A stretch of DNA of 64,000 bases from an uncultured Planctomycetaceae bacterium (lineage in GTDB: Bacteria; Planctomycetota; PLA2), in NCBI GenBank assembly GCA_964570285.1, contig CAZMXP010000010.1:10512-74511 (forward strand). The letters run 5' to 3'. Positions 9,371 to 45,599 of the stretch are shown here, in pieces; position 1 is the first letter of the stretch; each line of letters opens with the position of its first letter. The notes below the pieces were generated by a model. That model searched no databases. It had not been told where the DNA came from and saw nothing but the letters and a program-made list of their open reading frames with translations. A program made the translations under genes and the position numbers.

Positions 9371-9529
9371 CAGATCTCTCCTGATCACCTCGCACCCCCC
9401 GGCAGCGCCGTCCGGCCACGCTGACCCGTCCCGGAACACGCCCCCCCGGGGGCCATAGCATACGGGTTCGCCACGGTCTCCGCAGGCCCCCCCATCTCGG
9501 CGCGAGCCCCCGCTACAATCGCCGACCTC

Positions 9530-10603
9530 GTGAGCGAATTCCTCGAGTCCTTGGCCGTCGGCGAGCCGCTGTTCGAGCGCCGGAGCGATCCCGTGATCGA
9601 GCGCGAGGCGATGGCGCGCGCGGGCATGGTCTCGGAGATGCTCCACTACGTGCTGCCCAGCCGGTGGCTCGTGGAGGCGGTCACGACGCCGACCCGGCGC
9701 TCCTACGCGAGCGCGGACGAGATCAACCTCGCCGAGTTCGCGGCGTCGCAGGAGAATGCCTGCCGCCACTGCTACGGGGCGATGCGCTCGGTGCTCCGCC
9801 TGCTCGGGCACAGCGAGGCGCAGATCCTCCGGCTGGAGCGCGACCGGCAGACGATGGAGTTGGGGGCTCGGGGGCGAGGGGTCTACGACTTCGCGCGCGC
9901 GCTGGCCCGCTCGGACCCCCGCCCCGCGCGACCCGAACTGCAGGCGCTCGACCGCCTCGGCTTCTCGCGGAACGAATCGACGGAGATCGCGCTGAACGTG
10001 GCGATCGCCTGCTTCCTCAACCGCCTCGGGACCGCGCTGGCCATCCCGCCCGACGCGAATCTCGAAGCGATGCCGTCCAGGTGGATCGTGCGCCTGCTCG
10101 CCCCGCTCGTGCGCAGAAAGATGCGGGGCAGGCCGGTCCCTCCCCCCGCGGCCCCCCACCCAACTCCCGAGGTCCCGTTCGGCATGCTGATCCCGCTCCT
10201 CGGCCCCGTGCCGGGCGCGGCGAGTCTTGCTGGCACGATGGAGGCGGCCTTCCGCTCCGACGTGCTGACGCGGCGGGCGAAGACGCTCGCCTTCGCCGTC
10301 GTGGCGCGGACGATCGGCTGTGGCGTCTGCGAGGCGGAGGCGAGGCGCGCGCTCGAGGACGAGGGCATCGACGCCGCGGAGGCGGAGCGGATCCTCGCCC
10401 ATCTCGCGTCGCCAGCCCTCGATCCCGTGGAGGCGCTGCTCGTCCCCTATGCCCGCGAGACCGTGCGCTACCGGCCGGCGCAGATCCAGCAACGCACGCG
10501 CGAGTTGCTCGCCGCGCTCGGGCCCGACAGGACGCTCGAGGCCGTCGGCATCACGGCCCTCGCGAACGGGGTCGTGCGGCTCGGAATGCTCGCGGAATGC
10601 TGA
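9530..10603 (+). CDS. AhpD-like / carboxymuconolactone decarboxylase family protein, two-domain
   Basis: Two CxxC motifs in helical context (ENACRHCYGAM and TIGCGVCEAEA) typical of the AhpD/CMD fold; GTG start at 9530. Confidence 0.55.
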   Translation: MSEFLESLAVGEPLFERRSDPVIEREAMARAGMVSEMLHYVLPSRWLVEAVTTPTRRSYASADEINLAEFAASQENACRHCYGAMRSVLRLLGHSEAQILRLERDRQTMELGARGRGVYDFARALARSDPRPARPELQALDRLGFSRNESTEIALNVAIACFLNRLGTALAIPPDANLEAMPSRWIVRLLAPLVRRKMRGRPVPPPAAPHPTPEVPFGMLIPLLGPVPGAASLAGTMEAAFRSDVLTRRAKTLAFAVVARTIGCGVCEAEARRALEDEGIDAAEAERILAHLASPALDPVEALLVPYARETVRYRPAQIQQRTRELLAALGPDRTLEAVGITALANGVVRLGMLAEC

Positions 10604-11373
10604 CGTTCGCCCTCGTGGCACTCGGGGCGGCGCTTGCCGCGGCCTTAGGCGCTCTCGCGCTCCTTGAGCGATCCCGCTCCCGGTATGCGCGCGGCCTCGC
10701 GCGGGCGGCGGCGGACCTCGAGAGGCTTCAGACGGCGTTCGCCCGCTTCGCCCCGGCGGAGGTCGTCGAGCAGATCGCCGCGCGCGGGATCGCCCCCGAG
10801 GCGACGGAGCGGGAGGTGACGGTCCTCTTCGCGGACTTGAAGGGGTTCACGCCGCTTGCCGGCTCCCTCGGCCCCGAGAGCGTCGTCGATCTGCTGAACG
10901 GCTGGTTCCGCGAGATGAGCGCGGCGATCGTGGCGCACAACGGTCACGTGGCGAAGTTCCTCGGGGATGGCCTGATGGCGCTCTTCGGCGCGCTCGACCG
11001 GAACCCGTGGCAGGCGCGGGACGGGGTCGAGGCCGCGCTCGCGATGCGGGAGGCGCTTGCCCGCTACAATGAGGCGCTCCGGACGCGCGGCCTGCCGGCG
11101 CTCTCGTTCGGCGTCGGCCTCCACCGCGGCCCCGTCATCGCGGGCGTCATCGGCAGCGACGCGTGGATGGAGTACACCGTCGTCGGCGACACGGTCAATG
11201 TCGCGTCGCGGATCCAGGGGCTCACGCGGGTGCACGACACGGACATCCTCGTCAGCGAGGAGGTGCGCCTGGCCCTCGGCGACCGGTACTCGCTCCGGGC
11301 ACTCCCCCCCGCGCCGGTGCGCGGCAAGGCCGAGGCGATTCGTACCTACGCCGTCGAGCGCGCGGGGGCATAG
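10597..11373 (+). CDS. Membrane-anchored class III adenylate/guanylate cyclase
   Basis: ATG 10597 (7-nt overlap with upstream gene); N-terminal TM helix MLTFALVALGAALAAALGALALL; cyclase core FADLKGFTPLAG...GDGLMALFGA...GLHRGPVIAGVIGS. Confidence 0.8.
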   Translation: MLTFALVALGAALAAALGALALLERSRSRYARGLARAAADLERLQTAFARFAPAEVVEQIAARGIAPEATEREVTVLFADLKGFTPLAGSLGPESVVDLLNGWFREMSAAIVAHNGHVAKFLGDGLMALFGALDRNPWQARDGVEAALAMREALARYNEALRTRGLPALSFGVGLHRGPVIAGVIGSDAWMEYTVVGDTVNVASRIQGLTRVHDTDILVSEEVRLALGDRYSLRALPPAPVRGKAEAIRTYAVERAGA

Positions 11374-17441: not shown

Positions 17442-17477
17442 GAATCTCCGCTAATCTAGCAGAGGATTGGGGGGGCC

Positions 17478-17606
17478 CGTCGCCCGCTGCGCGGGCTATG
17501 GGCCCTAAAGGGCCCGAGGCGGTCGGCCGCTGCGCGGGCTATGGGCCCTAAAGGGCCCGAGGCGGTCGGCCGCTGCGCGGGCTATGGGCCCTGAAGGGCG
17601 CCGGAG
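17478..17606. repeat. Tandem repeat, 43-bp unit x3 (GGTCGGCCGCTGCGCGGGCTATGGGCCCTAAAGGGCCCGAGGC), each unit containing GGGCCC-TAAA-GGGCCC hairpin
   Basis: Three near-identical head-to-tail copies read from sequence; third copy has TGAA instead of TAAA. Confidence 0.85.
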
Positions 17607-17764
17607 CAGGTCACGCGCGCACGAAACGGACGCCCTCGCGTCCCTTTGAGGTCGTCATCCTCGGTCCAGAGCGTCGCCGCGTGGGCCCGCGCGGTTGCGA
17701 GGAGGATGCCGCGCGAGCTCGGCAGGGTGCAATGGCCGCCCAAGGTCACCGGGAACTGCGCGGT

Positions 17765-18172
17765 GCGGTGGATCACCGCCTTCGTCTTGAAGGAGGAGAT
17801 GAGGAACCCAGGAACTAAGGAACCGAGGAAGAGGCGGATTCGATTATCCGAGTACCGGGATGCTCCCCTTTGCTCTCATGGATTCCTCCCTTCCTGGGTT
17901 CCTCATCAAATCCGACACCCTCGTCCCTGATCGCTCGTACGCCATGCCCGCAGAGTCCTCGCCGCTGGCGCGGATCCCGACGAGTCAGTGGATTCGAGCG
18001 GGGGGAACGAAAACCACGGAGGCACGAAGACACGATGGGGCTTCCGCGACCCGGTGCGCTCCCCGCGCGCAGGCTCGTCGCTGCCCATTCTCCGTGCCTT
18101 CCTGCCTTCGTGGTCATTGTTCTGGATGACCGGTGCAGCGGCCTGCGCTGATTTGATTGCGGCGTCAAGCCG
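17765..18172 (+). repeat. Copy 1 of a ~400-bp lower-GC repetitive element with nested inverted repeats (GGAACCCAGGAA...TTCCTGGGTTCC; CACGAAG.CACGGAG...CTCCGTGCCTTCGTG); MITE or structured-RNA-like
   Basis: About 85% identical over ~380 bp to 45163-45530; partial homologs at 21023-21640 and 28262-28452 (inverted); intergenic. Confidence 0.75.
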
Positions 18173-18434
18173 CGCTGCGGCTCAACACGACCCGTCCCGA
18201 GGCGCCAGACTGTCGGCTCGGGCAGCCCTCCTCGGCCTCGGCCGCCGCGTATGGGGCCCGTCAGGACCGCTGAGCGATTCCTGTGCGAACGACTGCGAGT
18301 CCGCAGCGGGCGCCAAGACCGGCCCAGAGGAGCGATGAGGCCGAGGCGTAGGGCACCCGCCGCCCGCTCCCCCCGGGCGTGCGCGGAGGCGGCGGGGCCC
18401 TCCTAGCGGCCCCCGCCGCCTCCGACTTAACAAG

Positions 18435-18453
18435 GCAAACGCAACGCGTTTGC
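18435..18453. terminator. Palindrome GCAAACGC-AAC-GCGTTTGC (8-bp stem, 3-nt loop) immediately 3' of the DinB-like gene; candidate terminator or operator
   Basis: Read from sequence; followed on the minus strand by CTTGTTAAG. Confidence 0.3.
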
Positions 18454-18463
18454 TTTGGTCGCC

Positions 18464-21022: not shown

Positions 21023-21640
21023 AGCACAGAGGCGCAGCACGGCTTGACGCCGCAACCAAATCAGCGACGGCCGAAGGCCGCGCTGCGCCTAGTGAGGAGC
21101 TGCGGGATCCGGGTGACGCGCGCGGGGCAGAGGGCTGCGTGCGTTACTCCCCCGCCGCAGAGGATGGCTGCGAAGCGGCCACAGTGGCGCGGTTCGGGGC
21201 GCCGCACGAGGGCACCACCAGAATTTGCGCAGGGAGCGCGAAGTCTGCGGGTTAGTAGTACAGAGACGCAGAGGAGGAGTGAGGCCGCGACGGGACAGCG
21301 CGGGCCGTGGGCTGGCTGGTCTGCTCGGCGGGCGAGTGTTTCGGGCAGCGACGCCCGCGAACCCCAACTCGCCTCTGTACTAAGAACGCCTGGCTTCTGC
21401 GCCGCTTGGGCGAATTCATGCCCCGGGGATCTCCACGCCGCGAACGAGAACCACGAAGTCACGAAGACACGAAGGAGCCCCCGCGAGCCCGGACGCGAGC
21501 GGCGCCGCGGTCCGGCCTTTCACGTTCTCCGTGCCTTCGTGTCTTCGTGGTGATTGCTCGACATGACGCGTGCGGCGTCTTGCCGTCGTTTGGTTGCGGC
21601 GTGGGGGCCGCGCTGCGTCTCTGTGACTCTGTGCTACTCC
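21023..21640. repeat. Composite ~620-bp member of the repetitive element family; ~25-bp terminal inverted repeats (GGCTTGACGCCGCAACCAAATCAGCGACGG ... CCGTCGTTTGGTTGCGGCGTG), internal IRs (TTAGTAGTACAGAGACGCAGAGG / CCTCTGTACTAA), 3' half homologous to copy 1
   Basis: Read from sequence; segment 21425-21560 aligns to 17995-18140 (CACGAAG / CTCCGTGCCTTCGTG module). Confidence 0.65.
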
Positions 21641-23330: not shown

Positions 23331-24211
23331 CGCGACAGCCATCCGCGGGCGATCGCCGCGCGCACGATCTCGAAGAGGGGCTGATCCGCACGCACGCGCA
23401 GGAAGCCGATGCCGGTGCGTCGGCAGAAGGCCGAGAGCCCCGTCACGCGCGCCTCGCGCGCCCGATGGTAGGCGTCGACGCTCTCGCGCGTGATCTCGAG
23501 GCGCAGCGTCTCGCCGGTCTCGGAGTCGACAAGGCGGGTGCGCCCGGGGGGCGGCGGCATCAGCGCCTGCGGGTCCTCGATCAGCAGCGCGCGCACGCGG
23601 TAGCGGTGCCCTTGCAGGCGCGAGAGTGCCGCCGCGGCCCCCTTCGGATCGAAGAAGTCGCTGACGACGAAGGCGACCCCGCCGCGCGCGTGGCGCGGCA
23701 ACCGGCCCTTCAGCGCCGCGAGAAGATCCGTCGGGCCCGAGACCTCGCTGTCGATCGCCTCGAGCAGGTCGGCGCTCCGCCCCTCGGGGCCCATGGCCCG
23801 CGCCGCGGGCGTCGGGCCCCCCCCCGGGCCCCCCCCCGGGCCCCCCCCCATTCGCAGATGCTGCACGCGCTCGCGCTGCGAGAGCGCGATGGTGCCCAGC
23901 GCGGCGCAGACCTTCGCCGCCGTCTCCGCCGCGCGGCCGCGCATGCTCGCGGTCGAGTCCTGCACGAGCAGCAGGTCGATCGCCTCCTCGGCGTCGAACT
24001 CCTTCACGGCGAGCGTGTCCATGCGCGCATAGACATGCCAGTCCACCCGCCGCAGCGCGTCGCCGGGGTGGTAGGCGCGGTGCTCGCGAAAGCCGCTGCC
24101 CGGCCCGGCGCGGCGCATCGCGCGCTCGCCCTGCAACTGGCCGCGGCGCACCTTCGCGGCGAGCAGTTCCAACTGGCGCACCTGCGCCATCTCGCGCGCG
24201 GTGAGGATCAT
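23327..24211 (-). CDS. DUF58 family protein (MoxR-associated vWA-like)
   Basis: REMAQVRQLELLAAKVRRG...YHPGDALRRVDWHVYARMD...VKEFDAEE is the DUF58 signature; contains (GGGP)x3 encoded by a C/G homopolymer tract. Confidence 0.7.
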   Translation of the reverse strand: MILTAREMAQVRQLELLAAKVRRGQLQGERAMRRAGPGSGFREHRAYHPGDALRRVDWHVYARMDTLAVKEFDAEEAIDLLLVQDSTASMRGRAAETAAKVCAALGTIALSQRERVQHLRMGGGPGGGPGGGPTPAARAMGPEGRSADLLEAIDSEVSGPTDLLAALKGRLPRHARGGVAFVVSDFFDPKGAAAALSRLQGHRYRVRALLIEDPQALMPPPPGRTRLVDSETGETLRLEITRESVDAYHRAREARVTGLSAFCRRTGIGFLRVRADQPLFEIVRAAIARGWLSR

Positions 24212-26406: not shown

Positions 26407-27531
26407 ATGCGCCCCCCCCGCTTCTTCCTCTGCGCCGGCGAGCCGAGCGGCGTCGCGATCGGCGCGACGCTGATGCGCACGCTGAAGCGCCGCTGCCCGG
26501 GCGCGACCTTCGCGGGGCTCGGCGGCGACGCGATGATCGCCGAGGGGCTGCGCCTCATCTACGACCCCGCGCGCACCGCGACGATGTGGCTCTGGGGCAA
26601 TCTCAAGCGCATCCCCGCCCACCGGCGCGCGCTGCGCGCCTGCGTCGAGGACTGGGAGCGCGAGCGCCCCGACGTCGTCGTCACGATCGACTACCAGGCG
26701 TTCCACCTCTACATCGGCACCCGCGCCCGCGCGCTCGGCATCCCGGTGGTGCACTATGTCGGCTCGCAGTTCTGGGCGCGGCGCTACTTCACGCTGGAGC
26801 CGATCCGCCGCGCCTACAGCCACGTGCTGCTGATCCACGAGTTCGAGAAGGCCTACTACGACAAGGCACAAATCCCCGCGACCTTCGTCGGCCACCCGCT
26901 CTTCGAGCGCCTCGCCGAGCGCCCCCTCGACGACGCGAAGGTCGCGCGCCTTCGCTCGCTGCCGCCGCCGCGTCTCGGCCTCCTGCCCGGCAGCCGCCAC
27001 GGCGAGATCACCGGCGTGCTGCCGGTCATGCTCGAGGCGGCGCTCGCTCTCCCCGCGCCCCTCACCCTTCTCATCTCCTGCGCGCGCCCCGACTCCCGGG
27101 CCTTCCTCGAGGCGGAGGTCGGCAAGCGCCGCCTGCGCGCCGAGATCCTCGACAGCTCCTCCGCGGAGATCCTCTCGGCATCGGACGCGGCGCTCATCAC
27201 GAGCGGCTCCGCGTCGATGGAGGCGGTCTACTTCGACACGCCCGCCGCGGTGCTCTACCGCCTCTCGCCGCTCTCCTACTTCTTCGCCAAGCCGCACATC
27301 ACCTGCCCGATCGCGCAGCCCAATCTCGTCGCGGGCAGGATCTTCATGCCCGAGTTCCTGCTTCCGTCGGGCCGCAGCGACGGCGTCGCCGCGGCGGCGC
27401 GCACGCTGCTCGTCGATCCCGGGGCGCGCGCGGCGCAGCGCGCCGAGTTCGCGGCGATCCGAGAGCGGCTCCTGCGCCACCCCGCGCCGAGCGAGGCCGC
27501 CGCCGACGTCGTCTGCAGCTTCCTGCCGTGA
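26407..27531 (+). CDS. lpxB: Lipid-A-disaccharide synthase
   Basis: N-terminal FFLCAGEPSGVAIGATL matches the LpxB signature (AGExSGD); GT-B fold length. Confidence 0.85.
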   Translation: MRPPRFFLCAGEPSGVAIGATLMRTLKRRCPGATFAGLGGDAMIAEGLRLIYDPARTATMWLWGNLKRIPAHRRALRACVEDWERERPDVVVTIDYQAFHLYIGTRARALGIPVVHYVGSQFWARRYFTLEPIRRAYSHVLLIHEFEKAYYDKAQIPATFVGHPLFERLAERPLDDAKVARLRSLPPPRLGLLPGSRHGEITGVLPVMLEAALALPAPLTLLISCARPDSRAFLEAEVGKRRLRAEILDSSSAEILSASDAALITSGSASMEAVYFDTPAAVLYRLSPLSYFFAKPHITCPIAQPNLVAGRIFMPEFLLPSGRSDGVAAAARTLLVDPGARAAQRAEFAAIRERLLRHPAPSEAAADVVCSFLP

Positions 27532-28091
27532 GCGAGCGCGCGGAGTGGGAGCGGCAGATCGAGGAGGCGCGGCCGCGCCTCGTGCTCTGGGTGGCGGCGC
27601 GCCTCGGCACGAGGCTGCGGGCAAGGATCGAAGCGGAGGACATCGTGCAGGAGATCCTGCTGAAGGCGTTCGAGGGGCTCGCGACCTTCGAGCCGAAGCA
27701 CGAGCACTCGCTGCTCGCGTGGCTCTTCACGATCGCCGAGCACCGGATCGCCGACCTCGCCGACCACTTCGGCGCCGCCAAGCGCGACGGGGAACGCGAG
27801 CGCGAGATCCACTCGCGCATCGCCGCGTCGCAGACAAGCCCCAGCATGCGCGCGAGCCGCGAGGAGCAGAAGGAACTGCTCTGGCTCGCGATGTCGGCGC
27901 TCTCCGAGCGCCACCGCGAGATCCTCCGCCTGCGCCGCTTCGAGATGCTGTCGAACGAGGAAGCGGGCGAGCGGATGGGCATCACCGCCAAGAACGCATC
28001 CGTCCTCTACGTCCGCGCCGTCGAGGCGATGCGCAAGGTGATGACGGGGGGGCTCGGGGGGGCGGAGCGCAGCGCAGTCCCCCCCGAATGA
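27528..28091 (+). CDS. ECF (sigma-70 family group IV) RNA polymerase sigma factor; last 15 codons and stop supplied by the G7/C7 repeat module
   Basis: Region 2 (DIVQEILLKAFEGLATF) and region 4 (LSERHREILRLRRFEMLSNEEAGERMGITAKNASVLYVRA); GTG start overlapping lpxB stop. Confidence 0.8.
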   Translation: MSERAEWERQIEEARPRLVLWVAARLGTRLRARIEAEDIVQEILLKAFEGLATFEPKHEHSLLAWLFTIAEHRIADLADHFGAAKRDGEREREIHSRIAASQTSPSMRASREEQKELLWLAMSALSERHREILRLRRFEMLSNEEAGERMGITAKNASVLYVRAVEAMRKVMTGGLGGAERSAVPPE

Positions 28092-28170
28092 TCCAGGGGA
28101 TCGGGGGGGCTTGCCCCCCATAGCGCGCAGCGCGACGGGGGGCGGAGCGGAGTCCCCCCTGAGTAATCCG
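28046..28170. repeat. Two tandem copies of G7-loop-C7 module (GGGGGGGC.CGGGGGGGCGGAG[CGCAGCGCAG]TCCCCCCCGA.T.ATCC)
   Basis: Read from sequence; a third near-identical copy sits at 45078-45116 at the 3' end of an unrelated gene. Confidence 0.6.
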
Positions 28171-28261
28171 AAGGGCGAGCGGTAGGCCTTGCGCCAGTTG
28201 CGCTGACATGGAGGGTTGGCAGTACAAGCCTCGGGCGCTGCGCGCCCTCGCTATGGCCTGC

Positions 28262-28452
28262 GTCAGAACCGGATCGCGGGTAGCTGATTTGCTGAGGAAC
28301 CCAGGAAGAGAGGAGTCCATGAGTGCAGGTTGGAGCATCTCGGGACTCAGATGGATCGATTGCGCCTCCACCTTGACTCCTGGGTTCCTAGATTCCTGGG
28401 TTCCTTCTTCCAACCTCACGACGAAGGCTGTGGTCCGCCGCACCGCGCAGTC
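28262..28452 (-). repeat. Partial, inverted copy of the repetitive element family (5' GGAACCCAGGAA...TTCCTGGGTTCC module)
   Basis: Reverse complement of 28380-28450 aligns to 45161-45235 (GCGGTGGACCACCGCCTTCGTCTTG...GGAAGAAGGAACCCAGGAACTTAGGAACC). Confidence 0.6.
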
Positions 28453-28638
28453 CTCGGTGCAGTTGCATCCTGAGAAGGTTGCGCGGCAAGCTCCTGGTGC
28501 GCCCCGGAACGCACTTCGCGCCTGAATCCCGAACAACCCAGGAGAGCGGCACCCGGTGGTGGCACAGAGAGCCCGTGGCGGCCTCGTACGCGGCACGAGG
28601 GGGTCTTTAGGAAGCTCGTTCCCGGTGCGCGGCTGCGG

Positions 28639-29391
28639 TTGGACGTCCTCGGCGGCAGTAGAATCTGTCGCGTGGGGCGTTGTGTCGTGCTCCTCGTGGC
28701 GTTGGGGGCTGCCGTGGGCGGGTGCGGCTTCGGCCGCATCGCCGATGCGGTCTGCAGCGCCGCCGCGTTCGGCTTCACGACCGGCTGCGACACCGGATCC
28801 ACGTCGCTGGTCGCGGGCGCGCCGCGCGTCGATGTCGTCGATGCGGAGACAGGGGACCGATCCGCGCTGTCGAGCCCGAGCCTGGGCGGCGGCGCCGACT
28901 TCGCGGTCGGAGCGATCGCCTGGGACGGCGGCGACGGCTGCGTCGTCATGGTCGCGGAGGAGAGGGACGCGCTTTACGCGGTCGACGGCGGGAGCGGCGC
29001 GCGCAGGGTGATCTCCGACCTCGGTCGCGGACAGGGCCCGCCCTTCGACGCGATGCGCGGAGTGGCCGTCGATGCGTCCCGTCGGATGGCCTACGTGTCG
29101 GACGTGGGGCTCGACGCGTTGGTCGCCGTCGATCTCGCGACCGGCGATCGCGTGATCGTGGCCGGGCCCGGGACCGGGAGCGGCCCCTCCCTAGGGAACG
29201 TCCCCTTCTTCGTGCTCGGCTCCGACCTCGAGCACGCCTATCTGGTGGACTGGGACAGCGACCGACTGCTGCGCGTCGACCTCGCCACCGGCAATCGGAC
29301 CGTGCTCTCCTCGGAGGGTCTCGCGGGCCGCACCCCCTGGTCCATGGCGCTCTCTCCCAGCCGCAACCGTCTCTACGTCACGCGCTACTGA
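28639..29391 (+). CDS. Lipoprotein with beta-propeller (NHL/YVTN-like) repeats
   Basis: Lipobox VLLVALGAAVGGCG; repeated D-x-x-x-x-R-x-[LV]-x-V-D-L and AYVSDVGLDALVAVDLATG motifs. Confidence 0.55.
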   Translation: MDVLGGSRICRVGRCVVLLVALGAAVGGCGFGRIADAVCSAAAFGFTTGCDTGSTSLVAGAPRVDVVDAETGDRSALSSPSLGGGADFAVGAIAWDGGDGCVVMVAEERDALYAVDGGSGARRVISDLGRGQGPPFDAMRGVAVDASRRMAYVSDVGLDALVAVDLATGDRVIVAGPGTGSGPSLGNVPFFVLGSDLEHAYLVDWDSDRLLRVDLATGNRTVLSSEGLAGRTPWSMALSPSRNRLYVTRY

Positions 29392-29512
29392 GCGGCGACG
29401 CGCGGCGCGGCCCTCGGCTGTCGCCCGTCTGGTTGGCGCGTGCGGATCAGAGCGGAGCCAAAGCTCCGGCGGTCGAGGATAGACTGGGAAGACCCGCCTG
29501 CCCGTCGTCGAA

Positions 29513-31390
29513 GTGCACATGAAGGACGCACCTGCTCGACTCGCGATGCTCTGCGCGGTCCTGCTCGCCTGCTGCGGCGGGGCGCCAATTGCGGAGCTGC
29601 CCCTGGGGCAGTCCGGATCGGGCACCTACCGCCTCGCGGGGCGGGTGACGGACAGCGCGGGATGGCCCGTGGAGGGCGCCGAGGTATCCCTCGGCGAGAT
29701 GAGTGGCGACGTCAGGCGGGCGGAGCCGCGGTCGACGCGATGCGCCGACGATGGAACGTTCGAGTTCGTGGGGGTCACGATGGGCAACTGCCAGCTTGCG
29801 GTGCAAGCCGCTGGCTATGCCACGACCTGTCGCTCCGTGCCCTCCGGCGATGCGGACCTCGCGTTGACGCTATGGCGCCCGGCCTCCATATCCGGCGTGG
29901 TCGTGGACGCGGCGGGCCTTCCGACACGCGCCGAGGTGTCGCGCCTCTCGGACCGCGGCATGTGGGGAACACCCTCCGATGCGACCGACGAGTCCGGCGC
30001 ATTCCGGTATGACGGGCGTACGCCGGGGTCCTTCCACATCCGTGCACTCACGAAGAGCGGCGAGGAGGCCGATCTGCTGTTGCAACTCGCCGAGGGGGCC
30101 CAGCATCACGGCCTGCGCCTGCAAGTCGGCCCCCCGCGGCGATCATGGGTGCGGCTCCGGACCGTCGACCACGGAGGCAAGGGCGTGGCTGCGGAGGAGT
30201 TGTCCTTCACCTGGTCCGACGGGCGCCCGCGCATCGAGCCCGTGGGACAGGAGGTGCTGGCCGTCTACGATCTGCCGCCCGGAAGCGAGGTCACGCTGCG
30301 GGTGCAGAGGGGCGACGAGGCCGCGGCCGATCTCCGCGCGAAGACCGCATCGTCACCCGACAGCGCTCCCGCGGAGTTGACTCTCCCCCAGATGGTCCCC
30401 GTCCGTTTCGAGTCCGAGCCGCACGTAGACCGCCTCGGCGTGGGCGTCTGGCGCGGGGACTGGGAGATCGAGTTCGGCAGGACGCCACAGCGGCTGAGTC
30501 CAGCTTGCAGCTACGACGTGCGGTTCGAGGCGCGCGGCTATCTGCCGCACATCGAGTTCGACTGGCGACCGTCGCCGGAGGGCTCGGTGCTCAGGGTCCC
30601 GCTGAAGCCCGCGGCGACCGTGACCGGCACGGTCGTGGACCTCGACGGCAGGCCGCTCCCGAGTGCCACGGTCAAGGTCGGCGGTGTCGAATACTCCACC
30701 CCGGTCAGCGACGACGGGACCTTCAGCCTCGACGCTCTCGAACCCGGGGAGCAGGTGATCTGCGCGGATGTCGCGTGGACGCGCGTGGCCGCCACGCGCG
30801 TGCGCGCGGTTGCAGGAGTGGCCACAGACATCGGCAACCTGGTCGCCCAACGGCCTCGCCGGGTCGCAGGCCGCATTCGCGACGAATCCGGCCGCCCGAT
30901 CGGCGGCGCCCAACTCACCTTCGTGACGCTGCTGCGGGGCGGGTACTTCCTCTCAGACTCCGCCGACCAGTCCGAGACCTACTCGCACCACGACGGCCGG
31001 TTCGCCTTCGAGGTGCCCGGCGTCGCCGGCACCCTGATCGCCCACAAGCAGGGTTTTGGGACGACTCCTGTCGCGTGGCCCGAGGGCGAACCGGTGGGCC
31101 TCGAGGTCGTGTTGCCGCGCCCCGCGCTGCTGCGAGTCTCCGCGCTGCCCGAGCCCGAGTGGAACGACACCGGCTGGACCTGCTCGATCCGCTGGCCGGA
31201 CGGGACCGTGTGGGACATCGACGAGTTCCTCCCCTGCGACGTGGAGGTAGCCCCGGGTGCAATCGAAGTCCTGGGCCACTTCCAGCCCTACCGCATCGCG
31301 CCCTACTTCCGGTCCGACCTCGGCGGCACGAGGACGCGCAGCATCCTCGCTGTCGCCGGCGAGACCTTCCGCGTCGAGTTCGAGCGATAG
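29513..31390 (+). CDS. Lipoprotein with CarbopepD_reg-like repeats
   Basis: Lipobox AVLLACCGG; repeats RVTDSAGWPVEGAEVSL, GVVVDAAGLPTRAEV, GTVVDLDGRPLPSATVKV, GRIRDESGRPIGGAQLTF. Confidence 0.65.
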   Translation: MHMKDAPARLAMLCAVLLACCGGAPIAELPLGQSGSGTYRLAGRVTDSAGWPVEGAEVSLGEMSGDVRRAEPRSTRCADDGTFEFVGVTMGNCQLAVQAAGYATTCRSVPSGDADLALTLWRPASISGVVVDAAGLPTRAEVSRLSDRGMWGTPSDATDESGAFRYDGRTPGSFHIRALTKSGEEADLLLQLAEGAQHHGLRLQVGPPRRSWVRLRTVDHGGKGVAAEELSFTWSDGRPRIEPVGQEVLAVYDLPPGSEVTLRVQRGDEAAADLRAKTASSPDSAPAELTLPQMVPVRFESEPHVDRLGVGVWRGDWEIEFGRTPQRLSPACSYDVRFEARGYLPHIEFDWRPSPEGSVLRVPLKPAATVTGTVVDLDGRPLPSATVKVGGVEYSTPVSDDGTFSLDALEPGEQVICADVAWTRVAATRVRAVAGVATDIGNLVAQRPRRVAGRIRDESGRPIGGAQLTFVTLLRGGYFLSDSADQSETYSHHDGRFAFEVPGVAGTLIAHKQGFGTTPVAWPEGEPVGLEVVLPRPALLRVSALPEPEWNDTGWTCSIRWPDGTVWDIDEFLPCDVEVAPGAIEVLGHFQPYRIAPYFRSDLGGTRTRSILAVAGETFRVEFER

Positions 31391-31440
31391 TCTCCCCCTG
31401 TAGTCCCGGGCGCGGGTTTCCGCTATCAACATGGAGCGCG

Positions 31441-33462
31441 ATGGAGTCCGACGAAGAACTGCTCGCCCGCCTCGTCGAGGAGTACCACCGGCGCTCGGCG
31501 CAGGGGGCGCGCCCGTCGCCGGAGGAGTTCCGCGGGCAGGCAGGCGCCTGCTACGAAAGGCTGCTCGAACTCCTCCGGCAGGAGGCGCTGCTCGACAGCG
31601 CCATCGAAGGGGGCACGGGGGAACGGTTCCCGCGCACCTTCGGCGAATACACGCTGCTCGAACTGCTCGGCCGCGGCGGCATCGGCAACGTCTACAAGGC
31701 GGTCCACCGCCCCCTCGCACGCACCGTCGCGCTGAAGGTCTTGCAGGGCGGGTGGGCCGACGACGCGGAACTGGTCGAGCGGTTCCAGCGCGGCGCGCGG
31801 GCGGCGGCGCAGGTCGAGCACGACCATGTCGTGCGCATCCACGATGTCGGGGTCTTCGAGGGAAGGCCCTACATCGCGATGTCGCTTGTCACGGGCAGCG
31901 ACCTGAACGTGCTGTTCAAGAAGCTGCGCGTCGCGGGTCCGGCCCCCTTCACCCCCACCCATCACGCGATTCTCGACGAAGCCAACATCCCGGGCCACGG
32001 CACCGACACCGCAGCCTTCGTGCGGCGCATCGCGGCGCTGCTCGCCGGTCCCGCCGACGCGCTCGACCTCTACCACCGGGCCGGAATCCTCCACCGCGAC
32101 GTCAAGCCCGCCAACCTGCTGCTCGACCGCGGCGGACGCCTCGTGCTCACCGACTTCGACCTTGCGCGACGCTTCGAGACGAGCGCGCAGACGGCCGGCG
32201 GCACCCTCGGCACGCCGGGGTACATGAGCCCCGAGCAGTGGGATCCGGCGGTGGCCGAGATCGATGCGCGCAGCGACGTCTACTCTCTCGGGTGCGTCCT
32301 CTTCGAGGCGCTGACGCGCCATCCGCCCTTCCACGACGCCGACGATCCGGTGCGGACGATGAAGCGGGTGCTGACGGAGTCGGCACCCGACCCGGTGCGT
32401 TTCGTGCCCGACCTCGCCGCGGATGCGCGCCGAGTCGTCGGAAAGGCGCTGGAGAGGCGCCGCGAGGATCGCTACGCGGACGCCGCGGCGTTTGCCGCGG
32501 ACCTGCGCGCGCTCGCAAGGGCGGGCTCGGTCGCGGCGCGGCCCGTCCCGCTCGCGCGGCGGCTCGCGCGGCGCGCGTGGCAGCGGCGGGCCCCGCTCGC
32601 CGCGGCGCTGCTGACCGCGCTGGTCGCGCTCCTGCTCTGGGCCTCCCGCGGCGCGCACCTGTCGATCCTGCCGTGGCCCGACGCCGACGTCTGGCTCGAC
32701 GGCGTCGCGCTCGGGCGCACGCCGCTCAAGGACCGCCGGGTCAGCGCGGGGGAGCACGACGTCGTGCTGCGCCGCACCGGCTTTCGGGAGCATCGCGTGC
32801 GCTTCCATGTCGCCGCGGGCGAGTCGCGCACCCTCGACCCGCGCCTGCCGATCCTCGACGAGAACGATCCCGCGGTGCTCGTGGCGATCTTCGAGGCGGC
32901 GGGCGTCCGCACGCTCCAGCCGCCTCCGCGAGCGACCTACCGCACCGAGCCCGCCCGTCGCGGCGCGCCCCTTCCGCTGCTGCCCCGTGGCAAGGTGCGG
33001 CGCGCCGATTGCAAGACCTTCGAGATCGAGGCTGCTGCGGTCGAGGATGCGGAGCTGGTTCTACAGGAGATCGACGGCCAGGAGGTCTGGCGCAGGCCGC
33101 TTCGCCTCGTCGCCGGCCGCAACCGCGCGGAGGGCGCGCCGGAACTGCTCGTCGGCGCGACCTACCGCTGGAGGACCGGCGGCAGCGAGTGGGTGGAATT
33201 CACCGTCGTGAAGGATCTCGACCTGACCAGCGTGATGTCGGTACGTGCGGACGGCCACAACTCGCTTGCGGACAAGCTGGAGACCCGACTGCTGCACCAG
33301 GAGGAGCTCTTCACCGCCCTGCTGGTGAAACTGAGGGGGCTCGGGGGCGGCGCGGAGACTGAGACGCAGATGCGCTGGAGCGCCGTCGACGCGCTGGGCA
33401 TCCGCAACTCGGCGGAGGCGGAGGTGATCGGCCGCGACCTGGTCGGCGATGGCGAGCGGTGA
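31441..33462 (+). CDS. Ser/Thr protein kinase (Hanks-type) with TM segment and C-terminal PEGA domain
   Basis: GxGxxG LLGRGGIGNVYKA, VAIK-like VALKVL, HRDVKPANLLL, DFDLA, GTPGYMSPEQ; TM LAAALLTALVALLLWA; PEGA-like ILPWPDADVWLDGVALGRTPL...VVLRRTGF. Confidence 0.85.
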   Translation: MESDEELLARLVEEYHRRSAQGARPSPEEFRGQAGACYERLLELLRQEALLDSAIEGGTGERFPRTFGEYTLLELLGRGGIGNVYKAVHRPLARTVALKVLQGGWADDAELVERFQRGARAAAQVEHDHVVRIHDVGVFEGRPYIAMSLVTGSDLNVLFKKLRVAGPAPFTPTHHAILDEANIPGHGTDTAAFVRRIAALLAGPADALDLYHRAGILHRDVKPANLLLDRGGRLVLTDFDLARRFETSAQTAGGTLGTPGYMSPEQWDPAVAEIDARSDVYSLGCVLFEALTRHPPFHDADDPVRTMKRVLTESAPDPVRFVPDLAADARRVVGKALERRREDRYADAAAFAADLRALARAGSVAARPVPLARRLARRAWQRRAPLAAALLTALVALLLWASRGAHLSILPWPDADVWLDGVALGRTPLKDRRVSAGEHDVVLRRTGFREHRVRFHVAAGESRTLDPRLPILDENDPAVLVAIFEAAGVRTLQPPPRATYRTEPARRGAPLPLLPRGKVRRADCKTFEIEAAAVEDAELVLQEIDGQEVWRRPLRLVAGRNRAEGAPELLVGATYRWRTGGSEWVEFTVVKDLDLTSVMSVRADGHNSLADKLETRLLHQEELFTALLVKLRGLGGGAETETQMRWSAVDALGIRNSAEAEVIGRDLVGDGER

Positions 33463-33508
33463 GGGTGGAATTTTCCCCAAGAGCGGTACTAACGAGCCTG
33501 GCTCCGCC
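33444..33508. repeat. 65-bp direct repeat copy 1 (contains the kinase stop codon and a duplicated copy of the CPBP gene 3' end)
   Basis: 64/65 identical to 34180-34244. Confidence 0.85.
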
Positions 33509-33513
33509 TGTGC

Positions 33514-34053
33514 TCAGAAGATCGCGGCCACAGGAAGTTCGAAGCCGGGCAGCAGGTCGCCTCCGCGAATGACTTCCGACTCGGCGAAGGCTACCGGCTT
33601 TCCGCCCGCGCGGTGGACAGCGACCGTCCGCGCCTGAGGATCCACCACCCAGACCTCCGCCGCCCCCGCCTCAAGCCACTCGGCGACCTTCTCACGGACG
33701 TAGCCAGGGCGGTCGTCGGGCGAGAGCACCTCGACCGCGAGATCCGGAGCGCCCGGGTAGAACCCGCGGACTGGCACGGGCGTGCGACCCGCACGGACGA
33801 ACGAGACATCCGGCGCGCGCACCGTGTCGGGGTCGTGCGAGAGGAGGAAGCCCGTCTCGGCGGCGAAGACCGTTCCGAGCTGGCGAGCGGTCACGAATCC
33901 GGTGAGTCGGTACGCGAGCATGTTGGCGACCCGGCCATGGTCGGCCCCAGCCGGGACCATCATCACGAGCTTCCCCCGGACGAGTTCGCACCGACCGATG
34001 TCCCCGGCGCGGAGCAGCGCCTCGGCGGTCGTGATTGCGGCGGCCATGGGCAT
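33514..34053 (-). CDS. Uma2-family (DUF820, PD-(D/E)xK-like) putative endonuclease
   Basis: AEALLRAGDIGRCELVRGKLVMMVPAGADHGRVANMLAYRL...DVSFV...PDLAVEVLSP is the Uma2 signature; TACAAT 5 nt upstream of the ATG, possibly leaderless. Confidence 0.7.
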   Translation of the reverse strand: MPMAAAITTAEALLRAGDIGRCELVRGKLVMMVPAGADHGRVANMLAYRLTGFVTARQLGTVFAAETGFLLSHDPDTVRAPDVSFVRAGRTPVPVRGFYPGAPDLAVEVLSPDDRPGYVREKVAEWLEAGAAEVWVVDPQARTVAVHRAGGKPVAFAESEVIRGGDLLPGFELPVAAIF

Positions 34054-34179
34054 CGGCGATTGTAGCCCATGCCCATTTGACGGGAGTGGGTGTCACGCGC
34101 CAATCGCGCCAGGAATAGCGCGAGAGGAGGAGGGAGGGGCTCAGGCCAGACTCAAGCGGCGCGGGAGCGGCAGTCTGTA

Positions 34180-34244
34180 CGGCGATGGCGAGCGGTGAGG
34201 GTGGAATATTCCCCAAGAGCGGTACTAACGAGCCTGGCTCCGCC
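34180..34244. repeat. 65-bp direct repeat copy 2 (contains the authentic 3' end and stop of the CPBP protease gene and a duplicated kinase 3' end)
   Basis: See 33444-33508. Confidence 0.85.
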
Positions 34245-44663: not shown

Positions 44664-45113
44664 ATGCGGGCCGCGGTGCCCCCCCCGGACCCCCCCCTTC
44701 GCACCCTTCTGGGGCGCGCCCTCGCGCGCCGCTGCCCGGCTTGCGCCCAAGGACGCCTCTTCCGCTCCTTCCTCCGCCTCCACCGGGCCTGCCCCGCCTG
44801 CGGATGGCTCATCGAGCGCGAACCGGGCGCGGTGACCGGCCCGATGTATGTCGTCGCGATCCTGACCCAGCTCTTCGCGGCGCTGCTGCTGGGCCTCTCG
44901 TGGCTCCTCGTGGACTGGTCGCCCGCGCTGCTCCTCGCGGTGGGTCTCCCGGTCATCGCGCTCTTCTCGCTGCTGATGCTCCCCGTCGCGAAAGGAATGT
45001 GGGTCGCTCTCGACTACATCACCGACCTGCGCACCGGCGAAGCCTCCCGCCCCGACTATGCCCGAAGAGCCTATTCCGGGGGGGCCCGGGGGGGCGAAGT
45101 CCCCCCCGAGTAA
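44664..45113 (+). CDS. DUF983 family Zn-ribbon membrane protein; C-terminal codons and stop supplied by G7/C7 module
   Basis: CPACAQGRLF...CPACGW zinc ribbon plus two TM helices; ends ...SGGARGGEVPPE*, the same C-terminus as the ECF sigma gene. Confidence 0.6.
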   Translation: MRAAVPPPDPPLRTLLGRALARRCPACAQGRLFRSFLRLHRACPACGWLIEREPGAVTGPMYVVAILTQLFAALLLGLSWLLVDWSPALLLAVGLPVIALFSLLMLPVAKGMWVALDYITDLRTGEASRPDYARRAYSGGARGGEVPPE

Positions 45114-45116
45114 TCG
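45078..45116. repeat. G7-C-C-G7-CGAAG-TC7-GAGTAATC module (third copy)
   Basis: Near-identical to 28133-28170. Confidence 0.6.
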
Positions 45117-45162
45117 ATGGCCCGGGGGGGCGTTCAGGGTGCGATGGCGCGCCGAAGGCCAC

Positions 45163-45530
45163 GCGGTGGACCACCGCCTTCGTCTTGCGCTTGGAAGAAG
45201 GAACCCAGGAACTTAGGAACCTAGGAAGAGGCGCATTCGACCCATCCGAGTCCCGGGATGCTCCCATTTCCTCTCATGGGTTCCTCCCTTCCTGGTTTCC
45301 TTATCAAATCCGATTTCCTCGGCCCTGATCGCTTGTGCTCCATGCCCGCAGAGTCCTCGCCGCCTGCGCGGATCCCGACATGTCACTGGATTCGAGCGGG
45401 GTGAACGAAAACCACGGAGGCGCGAAGGCACGAAGGAGCCTCCGCGACCCGGTGCGCGCGCTGCGCGCCGGCTCGTCGCTTCCCGGTCTCCGTGCCTTCC
45501 TGCTCTCGTGGTCCTTGCTCCACATGGACT
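45163..45530 (+). repeat. Copy 4 of the ~400-bp repetitive element (full-length homolog of 17765-18140)
   Basis: About 85% identity to copy 1 across the whole core; intergenic between the DUF983 and CBS genes. Confidence 0.75.
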
Positions 45531-45599
45531 GGACCCCTGGGCCAAGCCTCGTAACCGTGGCGCACGGGCGAGGCACGCCGGGCAGGACCGGGAGCCGGC

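What the first reader, a model, noticed from the sequence alone, without database searches (positions are those of the whole stretch)
28262..28452. Inverted, truncated copy of the element 3' of the ECF sigma gene
The reverse complement of 28380-28450 matches the 5' module of copies 1 and 4 (GCGGTGGACCACCGCCTTCGTCTTG ... GGAAGAAGGAACCCAGGAACTTAGGAACC) and keeps the GGAACCCAGGAA / TTCCTGGGTTCC hairpin, but the rest has diverged. It shows the family inserts in both orientations and decays. Its position directly after a regulatory gene (the ECF sigma gene) and before a lipoprotein/kinase cluster could affect read-through.
Basis: seen in the sequence. Interest (0 to 1): 0.5.

Follow-up and report, generated by a model that had tools for sequence, protein, structure and literature searches.

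The report
Mosaic palindromic repeat beside sigma gene
The flagged stretch is a real and complete copy of a non-coding, hairpin-forming repeat scattered through this uncultured planctomycete genome; it belongs to an undescribed family of an ordinary kind of bacterial intergenic repeat, and whether it affects the neighbouring genes is untested.

Summary
The match is real. The reverse complement of window ~28271-28460 aligns to copies 1 and 4 at 84-86% identity (local score ~160; shuffles 20 +/- 2.5). It is not a truncated, decaying relic. The whole ~110-nt hairpin is kept, and the element extends in both directions to about 28173-28570. Its 3' partner is a different module (D) that follows the same hairpin at two unrelated loci in relatives. 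The family is a mosaic of non-coding modules in a 72% G+C Planctomycetota genome: a 5' region, a leader, hairpin A with GGAACC-octamer arms, hairpin B with CACGAAG-octamer arms, and modules C, D and E. Two related strains carry this copy at the same site, where it is more conserved than third codon positions of the flanking genes. Window copies 1 and 4 are absent from the orthologous sites of relatives. Octamer number varies (+24 nt in L094 and in L080). There is no Rfam, Pfam, phage or plasmid match. Best reading: a new member of the MITE/BIME/BOX/Correia kind of interspersed palindromic repeat. It probably acts as a single-stranded stem-loop between the ECF sigma gene and the downstream lipoprotein gene. 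That function is inferred, not shown.

The parts
27528..28091 (+). ECF-type sigma factor gene. The GTG start overlaps the lpxB stop. The last ~15 codons and the stop codon lie inside poly-G/poly-C repeat modules.
   Evidence: Translation. Pfam Sigma70_r2 E=2.8e-12 and Sigma70_r4 E=1.2e-11. The ortholog in L094 is called with the same 4-nt overlap with lpxB.
28040..28170 (.). Cluster of short poly-G/poly-C hairpin modules (GGGGGGGC...GTCCCCCCCGA[A/G]T[A/G]A). This is a different small repeat, not part of the A element. It varies between strains.
   Evidence: Direct repeat D16 with 45077-45130. The 47-nt unit 28047-28093 is absent in L090. L094 has another module there.
28173..28270 (-). Module D, joined to the 3' tail of hairpin A. 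It contains the GGGCGC-TGC-GCGCCC stem-loop.
   Evidence: BLAST: 86% to L084 14384-14455 and 90% to L090. L094 216-452 aligns to window 28173-28417.
28271..28295 (-). 3' tail of module A (sense strand: CTCAGCAAATCAGCTACCCGCGATCC).
   Evidence: Aligned in all copies.
28296..28404 (.). Hairpin A. The outer 12-bp stem pairs 28296-28307 with 28393-28404. The inner 7-bp stem pairs AGGAGTC (28311-28317) with GACTCCT (28375-28381). The arms are built of 8-nt units and the apical region is poorly paired.
   Evidence: I18; dG -55 to -60 kcal/mol, z about -4 on either strand.
28405..28459 (-). Leader (sense strand: CACCGAGGACTGCGCGGTGCGGCGGACCACAGCCTTCGTCGTGAGGTTGGAAGAA). This is the best-conserved part of the family.
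   Evidence: It is 96-100% identical in the orthologs L090 and L094.
28460..28570 (-). 5' region of the element (A5), shared with L080, L084 and L090 and partly with copy 1. It carries a positionally conserved TTGCCG-N16-TGCAAY motif.
28571..28638 (+). Unique, non-repeat remainder of the intergenic region, upstream of the lipoprotein gene.
   Evidence: No paralog in the module BLAST. It is 91-95% identical in the orthologs.
28639..29391 (+). Downstream gene: a putative lipoprotein (signal peptide ...VVLLVALGAAVGGCG). The start is TTG 28639 or GTG 28672.
   Evidence: ORF list, sequence, gene call in L094. No Pfam family.
17697..18183 (+). Paralog copy 1: partial A5, leader, hairpin A, linker, hairpin B, then C.
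   Evidence: The whole complex 17446-18463 is replaced by ~100 nt in relative L091.
45128..45523 (+). Paralog copy 4: 5'-truncated A5/leader, hairpin A, linker, hairpin B.
   Evidence: Window 45112-45594 corresponds to 34 nt in relative L098.
21029..21620 (.). Composite with hairpin B but no hairpin A: C (inverted), E, F, B, then a C-like end.
   Evidence: (D1, I4). The orthologous region in L094 carries a different mosaic: B(rc), D(rc), A(rc).

Best explanation
The feature is a complete member (the 'A-D' subtype) of an undescribed family of non-coding, modular, palindromic interspersed repeats. The host is an uncultured high-G+C Planctomycetota bacterium. The family is the same kind of thing as MITE-, BIME-, BOX- and Correia-type intergenic repeats.

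Shown:
- The modules (5' region, leader, hairpin A, linker, hairpin B, C, D, E) recur in different combinations and orientations.
- Copies are present or absent at orthologous sites of close relatives.
- The number of 8-nt units in the hairpin arms varies, as expected from replication slippage.
- This particular copy is old. It sits at the same place in three related strains, and its hairpin and leader change more slowly than third codon positions of the neighbouring genes.

Inferred:
- The element acts in single-stranded form, as RNA or as ssDNA. Nearly all transition-type mismatches in the stems are G.U-compatible on one strand only. At this locus that is the + strand, the one transcribed with the sigma and lipoprotein genes.
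- In transcripts leaving the ECF sigma gene, the ~110-nt stem-loop followed by UUCCUUCUUCC most likely marks or protects the mRNA 3' end and insulates the downstream lipoprotein/kinase genes from read-through.

I put identity as a mosaic interspersed repeat at about 0.85. I put the terminator/insulator role at about 0.35. The confidence given for this entry (0.55) is for the statement as a whole.
For: Family membership: alignment scores 162/159 against 20 +/- 2.5 for shuffles.

Modular recurrence: BLAST of each module against the window and related loci. The A-D junction occurs at three independent loci.

Non-coding: no Pfam hit at E<=1 for ORFs crossing the element. There are 1-nt and 8-nt indels between copies. 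No Rfam family.

Presence/absence:
- The copy 1 complex (~1 kb) corresponds to ~100 nt in L091.
- Copy 4 (483 nt) corresponds to 34 nt in L098.
- The 21-kb intergenic region has different mosaics in L094 and L091.

Unit-number variation: +24 nt, (CCTTGATT)x3, in the L094 ortholog, and (AGGAACCG)x3 in L080.

Age and constraint:
- The element is at the same site in L090 and L094.
- Tail, hairpin and leader are 180/190 and 181/190 identical, against 409/499 and 445/501 at third codon positions (Fisher p=6e-6 and 0.008).
- One stem pair runs A-T (L090), G.T (L094), G-C (window).

Strand asymmetry: 18 stem cells are A.C on the sense strand (G.U on the antisense strand), against 2 of the opposite type. 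Antisense RNA folds are more stable in 6 of 8 copies.

Structure in context: the hairpin is an independent domain in a fold of the 671-nt intergenic RNA.
Against: Mobility:
- No target-site duplication or clean insertion boundary was found at either empty site.
- No autonomous element or transposase with matching ends was found.

Structure:
- Formal covariation is weak. Most pairs never vary, 3 pairs show double changes against 2.0 in shuffles, and 25/500 shuffles reach the observed score, on a hand-curated core alignment.
- The strand asymmetry shrinks to 6 against 2 when each column state is counted once.

Constraint: conservation above third-codon-position level could come from gene conversion among paralogs, or from a local recombination tract. 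The start of the lipoprotein gene is 97-100% identical between strains.

Function:
- There is no canonical intrinsic terminator; only a 5-bp sub-hairpin was flagged.
- Orientation relative to flanking genes is mixed over seven loci (and the gene maps).
- One copy (L080) lies between divergent genes, where a terminator has nothing to terminate.
Confidence: 0.55

Rival explanations
1. The element is a gene for a small regulatory RNA (or a family of them), transcribed on the element's sense strand (the - strand here). Transcription would start from a promoter in the 5' region. The conserved leader would act as a single-stranded seed, and hairpin A as a stabilising or terminating stem-loop.
For: The leader is the most conserved segment (96-100% in the orthologs). 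A TTGCCG-N16-TGCAAY motif sits at a fixed place 2-14 nt upstream of the leader in six copies. Hairpin and leader are more conserved than third codon positions.
Against: The -10-like hexamer lacks the key A2/T6 in most copies, and the promoter scan found nothing. Copy 4 lacks the -35 part and the first 20 nt of the leader. Stem mismatches favour pairing on the opposite strand. No U-tract follows the hairpin on the sense strand. No Rfam family matches. Modules are shuffled and lost between close strains.
Confidence: 0.15
2. It is an inert, decaying relic of a once-longer element. It would have no function and would be drifting neutrally.
For: It lacks module B. The apical part of the hairpin pairs poorly, and L085 has a 20-nt deletion there. 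Covariation is weak.
Against: The 'diverged' part is module D, which recurs after hairpin A at two other loci. The element extends further at its 5' side than copies 1 and 4 do. Hairpin and leader are more conserved between strains than third codon positions. One stem pair was restored by a second substitution.
Confidence: 0.15
3. It is a duplex-DNA protein-binding array. The repeated GGAAC units resemble the -35 element of ECF sigma promoters. They could serve as promoters or decoy sites for the adjacent ECF sigma factor or another regulator.
For: GGAAC recurs every 8 nt in the arms. The element lies next to an ECF sigma gene. The resemblance to the -35 consensus comes from my own recollection.
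Against: The other copies (17.8 kb, 45.2 kb, L080, L084, L085) are not next to sigma genes. No suitably spaced -10-like CGTC partner was seen by eye. An 8-nt period does not match helical phasing. The strand-asymmetric mismatch pattern argues for a single-stranded form rather than duplex DNA.
Confidence: 0.05
4. It is part of a small protein-coding gene, the 105-codon ORF 28208-28525 on the + strand.
For: An ATG-to-stop ORF spans the element. The reading frame across the leader (KTKAV..RTAQ) is shared by several copies, and one 12-nt indel keeps the frame.
Against: No Pfam match at E<=1. Equivalent frames in copies 1 and 4 contain stop codons. 1-nt and 8-nt indels separate the copies. By my count, G+C at third positions of the ORF's tail is about 71%, against 85-100% in genes of the window.
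Confidence: 0.02

Closest known systems
BOX elements of Streptococcus pneumoniae (boxA-(boxB)n-boxC)
   Same: Both are non-coding, intergenic and multi-copy. Both are built of modules found in different combinations, with a variable number of internal repeat units. Both are predicted to fold into long stable stem-loops, and both occur in either orientation near genes.
   Different: There is no sequence similarity: no Rfam hit. The variable unit here is an 8-nt repeat inside the hairpin arms, not a 45-nt boxB. The host is a Planctomycetota bacterium. Knowledge of BOX is from my own recollection, not tested here.
REP / BIME / REPIN elements (GTAG- or CGTC-tagged palindromes; PMC3733652)
   Same: Both are palindromic intergenic repeats clustered in mosaic arrays with other motifs. 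Both are often found at gene 3' ends. Roles in termination and mRNA stabilisation have been hypothesised for them. Their mobilisation uses a single-stranded hairpin.
   Different: REPs are 20-40 bp, with 5-13-bp stems and a GTAG or CGTC tag directly at the stem (PMC3733652). Hairpin A is ~110 nt, with arms that are not themselves palindromes. A GTAG lies 12-15 nt from the stem and only in some copies. No RAYT gene was seen.
Correia/NEMIS elements of Neisseria and bacterial MITEs in general
   Same: Both are small (100-500 nt) and non-coding, with terminal inverted repeats able to form a long hairpin. Both are insertion-polymorphic between strains. Both are co-transcribed with neighbouring genes, where they can alter mRNA processing and expression.
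   Different: No target-site duplication was found, and no parent insertion sequence with the same ends. Here whole composites of several modules are gained or lost. Knowledge of Correia elements is from my own recollection.
Intrinsic (Rho-independent) terminators
   Same: A stable stem-loop in the 3' untranslated region of a gene, followed on the + strand by a pyrimidine/U-rich tail (UUCCUUCUUCC).
   Different: The stem-loop is about ten times longer than usual. The tail is not a U-run. The consensus scan did not call it. The same element also occurs between divergent genes (L080).

Membership tests
This window's repeat family (copies 1 and 4) | Sequence homology to the leader and hairpin A beyond chance | tested here: met
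   Scores of 162/159 against 20 +/- 2.5 for shuffles; 84-86% identity; alignments A1 and A2.
MITE-like interspersed repeat | Small, non-coding and multi-copy | tested here: met
   Three hairpin-A and three hairpin-B copies in 64 kb, plus 6 more hairpin-A copies in loci of relatives. No Pfam hit.
MITE-like interspersed repeat | Terminal inverted repeats | tested here: inconclusive
   Hairpin A has 12-bp plus 7-bp inverted arms. However, the unit that is gained or lost is a larger composite, and its outer ends are not inverted repeats of each other.
MITE-like interspersed repeat | Target-site duplication flanking the insertion | tested here: not met
   Empty and filled sites were compared for copy 1 and copy 4. 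There is no direct repeat at the boundaries, and the junctions are blurred.
MITE-like interspersed repeat | Presence/absence polymorphism at orthologous sites | tested here: met
   Copy 1 is absent in L091. Copy 4 is absent in L098. This copy is present in L090 and L094.
MITE-like interspersed repeat | A cognate autonomous element or transposase with the same ends | not tested
   No transposase was seen next to any copy in the loci held. A whole-genome search was not possible.
REP/BIME (GTAG or CGTC super-families) | A 20-40-bp palindrome with a GTAG or CGTC tag adjacent to the stem | tested here: not met
   The hairpin is ~110 nt. GTAG lies 12-15 nt away and only in some copies (sequences). 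Criteria are taken from PMC3733652.
REP/BIME (GTAG or CGTC super-families) | Association with a RAYT (Y1 transposase) gene | not tested
   None is present in the window's Pfam-scanned genes, but most ORFs were not scanned.
Any Rfam RNA family | Covariance-model score at or above the gathering threshold | tested here: not met
   There were 0 hits over the whole window. Only sub-threshold chance hits appeared in 27900-28800.
Structured functional RNA (generic) | Compensatory base changes exceeding controls | tested here: inconclusive
   Three pairs show double changes against 2.0 in shuffles. The covariation score is 0.049 against 0.036, reached by 25/500 shuffles. There were 9 sequences in a curated core alignment.
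Intrinsic terminator | A G+C-rich stem-loop followed by a U-tract | tested here: inconclusive
   The scan flags only a 5-bp sub-hairpin at 28387-28400 followed by TTCCTTCTTC. The full hairpin is followed by a U/C-rich tail rather than a U-run.

The most novel reading that the evidence does not exclude
Hairpins with GGAACCCAGGAA arms, asymmetrically expanded in 8-nt steps, could be a strand-specific single-stranded signal. The signal could be RNA or ssDNA, and could be shared by many Planctomycetota and by some Verrucomicrobiota, Acidobacteriota, Latescibacterota and Sandaracinaceae. It might be an unrecognised class of factor-dependent terminator or processing site, or the recognition hairpin of an unknown mobilising enzyme. 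Octamer copy number might tune its strength. The evidence does not exclude this. The same 12-nt arm occurs in otherwise unrelated hairpin repeats of at least 5 Planctomycetota MAGs and other phyla. Stem mismatches are strongly strand-biased.
Probability: 0.12. Interest if true: 0.6.

Novelty: new member of a known kind. Interest (0 to 1): 0.3.

Why it matters
If the reading is right, this is mainly an annotation matter.

- **Annotation.** About 400 nt between an ECF sigma gene and its neighbouring lipoprotein/kinase cluster is repeat DNA. It should not be mistaken for a gene; a 105-codon ORF crosses it.
- **Genome plasticity.** The intergenic regions of this uncultured planctomycete lineage are rapidly reshuffled mosaics. 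These break assemblies and create strain differences.
- **Gene ends.** Related small modules supply the stop codon and C-terminus of the sigma factor.
- **Regulation.** The copy is fixed in three strains and is more conserved than third codon positions of the flanking genes. It is therefore a reasonable candidate for a co-opted 3'-end or insulator element in an ECF-sigma/Ser-Thr-kinase signalling locus. That would be a modest but testable case of repeat domestication.
- **Wider question.** The recurrence of the same 12-nt arm across phyla is the only aspect that could lead to something broader.

Tried and rejected
**Host taxon.** I first guessed a Myxococcota/Sandaracinaceae host, from the G+C content and the GTDB hits. 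I rejected this: lpxB, CBS and Cys/Met-enzyme homologs at 56-76% identity are all labelled Planctomycetota.

**Coding potential.**
- Leader as the remnant of a PIN/VapC gene: the reverse-strand translation of copy 1 looked like '...ATARAHAATLWTEDDDL'. No Pfam hit at E<=1, so rejected.
- Small ORF 28208-28525: rejected.

**Database searches.**
- Rfam, at gathering and E-value thresholds, and tRNA/tmRNA: nothing.
- Phage, plasmid and IMG/VR searches for the element or for the hairpin pattern: nothing.
- Literature searches for the octamer string, for Sandaracinus repeats and for planctomycete REPs or MITEs: no description of this family. Only the general REP survey PMC3733652 turned up.

**Promoters and terminators.** I looked for sigma-70, sigma-54 and ECF-type promoters by eye and with the scanner. 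Nothing convincing appeared. There is only a weak TTGCCG-N16-TGCAAY motif.

**Insertion boundaries.** No target-site duplications were found at the two empty sites.

**Look-ups and scans.**
- Exact look-up of window proteins to name the source record: not on record, or unnamed.
- 7 of the 11 metagenome pattern hits were chance matches in coding sequence.
- Most of the 79 GTDB hits are simple (GGAACCCA)n arrays, or a conserved Clostridia gene. They are not members of this family.

**Alignment.** MAFFT shifted the octamer register in copies with extra units. I therefore used a hand-trimmed core for pair counting.

Full report

Yes. The 12-mer GGAACCCAGGAA occurs 9 times in the window at up to one mismatch, in three clusters (17.8, 28.3 and 45.2 kb), against 0.11 expected. 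The repeat finder links 28253-28459 to 17747-17945 and 45163-45226 as inverted repeats (I1-I3).

A local alignment of the reverse complement of 28200-28500 scores 162 against copy 1 (151 of 175 aligned columns identical). It scores 159 against copy 4 (125 of 148). 300 dinucleotide-preserving shuffles give 20 +/- 2.5, with a maximum of 31-35. The hairpin is present: the outer stem pairs 28296-28307 with 28393-28404. It folds at -55 to -60 kcal/mol on either strand, z about -4.

**2.

The homology does not stop after 70 nt.

- It covers the whole hairpin, including the apical part, and a 25-nt tail.
This '5' region' (28460-28570) is shared with copies from a related organism and partly with copy 1.
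- The part called 'diverged' (28173-28270) is a separate module, D. D follows hairpin A at two unrelated loci of relatives, L084 14384-14455 and L094 216-455.

This is therefore an 'A-D' type element, not a truncated 'A-linker-B' type. It spans about 28173-28570. That is most of the 547-nt spacer between the sigma stop codon (28091) and the first candidate start of the next gene (28639).

**3. The family**

BLAST of each module against the window and the related loci shows a mosaic system. The modules are:

- the 5' region and the leader;
- hairpin A, with arms of AGGAACCN octamers;
- a linker;
- hairpin B, with arms of CACGAAGN octamers;
- modules C, D and E;
- poly-G/poly-C mini-hairpins and a 43-nt tandem unit.

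The combinations differ at every locus:

- copy 1: partial 5' region, A, linker, B, C;
- copy 4: 5'-truncated A, linker, B;
- the 21-kb region: C (inverted), E, F, B, C-like end;
- L084: C (inverted), 5' region, A, D, E (inverted);
- L085: A, linker, and part of B.

Nothing in the family is coding. ORFs across it have no Pfam match at E<=1. Frames are broken by stop codons and by 1-nt and 8-nt indels. There is no Rfam family and no tRNA. There is no phage, plasmid or IMG/VR match. I found no paper describing it.

**4. Host and gene context**

The window is 71.7% G+C. Homologs of its lpxB, its CBS-domain gene and its Cys/Met-metabolism gene at 56-76% identity are all labelled Planctomycetota. 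The source record itself is unnamed.

The genes around the finding are:

- lpxB (26407-27531);
- an ECF-type sigma factor (27528-28091; Sigma70_r2 and r4);
- a putative lipoprotein (from 28639 or 28672);
- a CarboxypepD_reg protein;
- a Ser/Thr kinase with a PEGA domain.

From memory, ECF sigma factors linked to Ser/Thr kinases are typical of Planctomycetes. I did not test this. In more distant relatives (lpxB 72-74% identical; L096, L097), lpxB is followed directly by an Rce1-like gene on the opposite strand. The whole sigma-to-kinase block is therefore lineage-specific.

**5. Comparative evidence**

A metagenome scan with a leader-plus-arm pattern returned four true copies, all from one JGI sample. 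One of them, L090, is the orthologous locus. A second ortholog, L094, comes from another sample and has lpxB 95% identical.

All three strains carry the element at the same place and in the same orientation. This insertion therefore predates their split.

The other copies in the window are not shared:

- The ~1-kb complex holding copy 1 (17446-18463) corresponds to ~100 nt in L091.
- The 483 nt holding copy 4 (45112-45594) corresponds to 34 nt between the two stop codons in L098.
- The repeat-filled spacer at 21.0-21.7 kb is a different mosaic in L094. In L091 it is replaced by three genes.

I found no target-site duplications or sharp boundaries. The mechanism of gain and loss is therefore open: transposition of composites, or recombination between modules.

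**6. Octamer instability**

The ortholog in L094 has 24 extra nucleotides, three more CCTTGATT units, in one arm. L080 has three extra AGGAACCG units. The window and L090 copies have one unit more than copies 1 and 4. The arms behave as a period-8 variable tandem repeat, as expected from slippage.

**7. Is the copy constrained?**

Between the window and L090, tail, hairpin and leader are 180/190 identical, against 409/499 at third codon positions of lpxB and the sigma gene (Fisher p=6e-6). Against L094 the figures are 181/190 and 445/501 (p=0.008). The leader is 96-100% identical. The 5' region and module D, at 88-92%, are nearer the third-codon-position level.

One inner-stem pair reads A-T in L090 and in most paralogs, G.T in L094, and G-C in the window (G28315-C28377). 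This is a stepwise compensatory change. A neighbouring pair is C-G in three copies, T-A in three, and C.A in three.

The formal test is weak, however. On a hand-trimmed 25-pair core of nine copies, 3 pairs show double changes against 2.0 in shuffles. 25 of 500 shuffles reach the observed covariation score. Most pairs never vary.

Two other explanations for the conservation remain. One is gene conversion among paralogs. The other is a local recombination tract: the first 167 nt of the lipoprotein gene are 96-99% identical between strains.

**8. Which form is active?**

Transition-type mismatches in the stems are strongly one-sided. 18 cells are A.C on the element's sense strand, which makes them G.U on the antisense strand. 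Only 2 cells are of the opposite type. Counting each column state once gives 6 against 2. Antisense-strand RNA folds are 2-9 kcal/mol more stable in 6 of 8 copies and about equal (within 0.3 kcal/mol) in the other two.

This suggests that the hairpin matters in single-stranded form, as RNA or ssDNA, and on one strand. At this locus that strand is the + strand, the one transcribed with the sigma and lipoprotein genes. On that strand the hairpin is followed by UUCCUUCUUCC. It persists as an independent domain when the whole 671-nt region is folded. The consensus scanner finds no canonical terminator or sigma-70 promoter.

Over seven independent loci the orientation relative to neighbouring genes is mixed: two antisense-codirectional, two sense-codirectional, two convergent and one divergent. 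No simple positional rule emerges.

**9. Most likely mechanism**

I commit to the following. The element is a fixed copy of a mosaic, non-coding interspersed repeat. Transcribed as the 3' untranslated region of the sigma mRNA, it forms a long stem-loop. That stem-loop, together with the poly-G/C mini-hairpins upstream, ends or protects that transcript and limits read-through into the lipoprotein/kinase genes.

- Identity: about 0.85, shown.
- Function: about 0.35, inferred from position, structure, conservation and strand bias.

Rivals are an sRNA gene on the sense strand (0.15; a weak TTGCCG-N16-TGCAAY motif lies just upstream of the leader), an inert relic (0.15), a protein-binding GGAAC array (0.05), and a small ORF (0.02).

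**10. Comparison with known systems**

It works like BOX, BIME/REP, ERIC and Correia-type elements. It is modular, palindromic, intergenic, strain-variable and potentially co-transcribed.

It is not a member of any of them:

- There is no sequence or covariance-model match.
- It fails the REP definition of a 20-40-bp palindrome with an adjacent GTAG or CGTC tag (PMC3733652).
- It lacks the target-site duplication expected of a classical MITE.

**11. Wider pattern (not resolved)**

Many are plain (GGAACCCA)n arrays, and a few lie in a conserved Clostridia gene.

At least five Planctomycetota MAGs contain hairpins with the same 12-nt arms but unrelated loops and flanks. So do a Sandaracinaceae, an Opitutae, a Latescibacterota and a Spirochaetales MAG. 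These hairpins are often multi-copy and at contig ends.

The pattern itself selects octamer arrays, and no control 12-mer could be scanned. I therefore cannot say whether this recurrence is meaningful.

**12. Verdict**

The 'truncated and decaying' interpretation is wrong. The element is a new member of a familiar kind of bacterial repeat. Interest is modest (0.3). It would rise only if the strand-specific structure or the cross-phylum arm motif proves to be functional.

Noticed in passing
window 28040-28170 and 45077-45135: Short poly-G/poly-C hairpin modules (GGGGGGGC...GTCCCCCCCGA[A/G]T[A/G]A) overlap the 3' ends of the ECF sigma and DUF983 genes and supply their stop codons. The 47-nt unit 28047-28093 is absent in the ortholog L090, and L094 has a different module there. 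The C-terminus of the sigma factor therefore differs between close strains.
   Followed up: partly
window 17479-17607 (also 23778-23811; L094 ~7290-7330): A 43-nt unit (GTCGCCCGCTGCGCGGGCTATGGGCCCTAAAGGGCCCGAGGCG) is repeated three times in tandem upstream of the cytochrome c peroxidase gene. Related units occur elsewhere in the window and at the sigma 3' end in L094.
   Followed up: partly
window 21090-21262 versus L084 14442-14614: A 173-nt module (E) is 95% identical between the window and a non-orthologous locus of the relative. That is clearly above the 82-90% seen for orthologous genes. It suggests recent spread or strong constraint.
   Followed up: no
window 33439-33508 and 34175-34244: A 70-nt direct repeat (96% identical) brackets about 0.7 kb just after the kinase gene.
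   Followed up: no
window ~27528-34000 versus L096 and L097: The whole block from the sigma gene through the lipoprotein and CarboxypepD_reg genes to the Ser/Thr kinase is missing between lpxB and the Rce1-like gene in more distant Planctomycetota relatives. It looks like a lineage-specific insertion.
   Followed up: partly
window 28834-29479 versus L090 241-886: This stretch is 97.7% identical to the relative, while neighbouring DNA is about 82% identical. L090 also has ~284 extra nt and lacks window 29479-30630. Possible causes are a recombination tract, a rearrangement in the repeat-containing lipoprotein gene, or an assembly chimera.
   Followed up: no
loci L001-L079 (GTDB genomes): (GGAACCCA)n octamer arrays, often as hairpins with more units in one arm, occur in many phyla. 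In the Planctomycetia MAG SRP077602_co5_567 they are multi-copy and frequently at contig ends.
   Followed up: partly
window 6781-10695; L098 2070-4187: Further kilobase-scale presence/absence differences exist between the window and its relatives. 3.9 kb is present only in the window, and 2.1 kb with several small genes is present only in L098.
   Followed up: no
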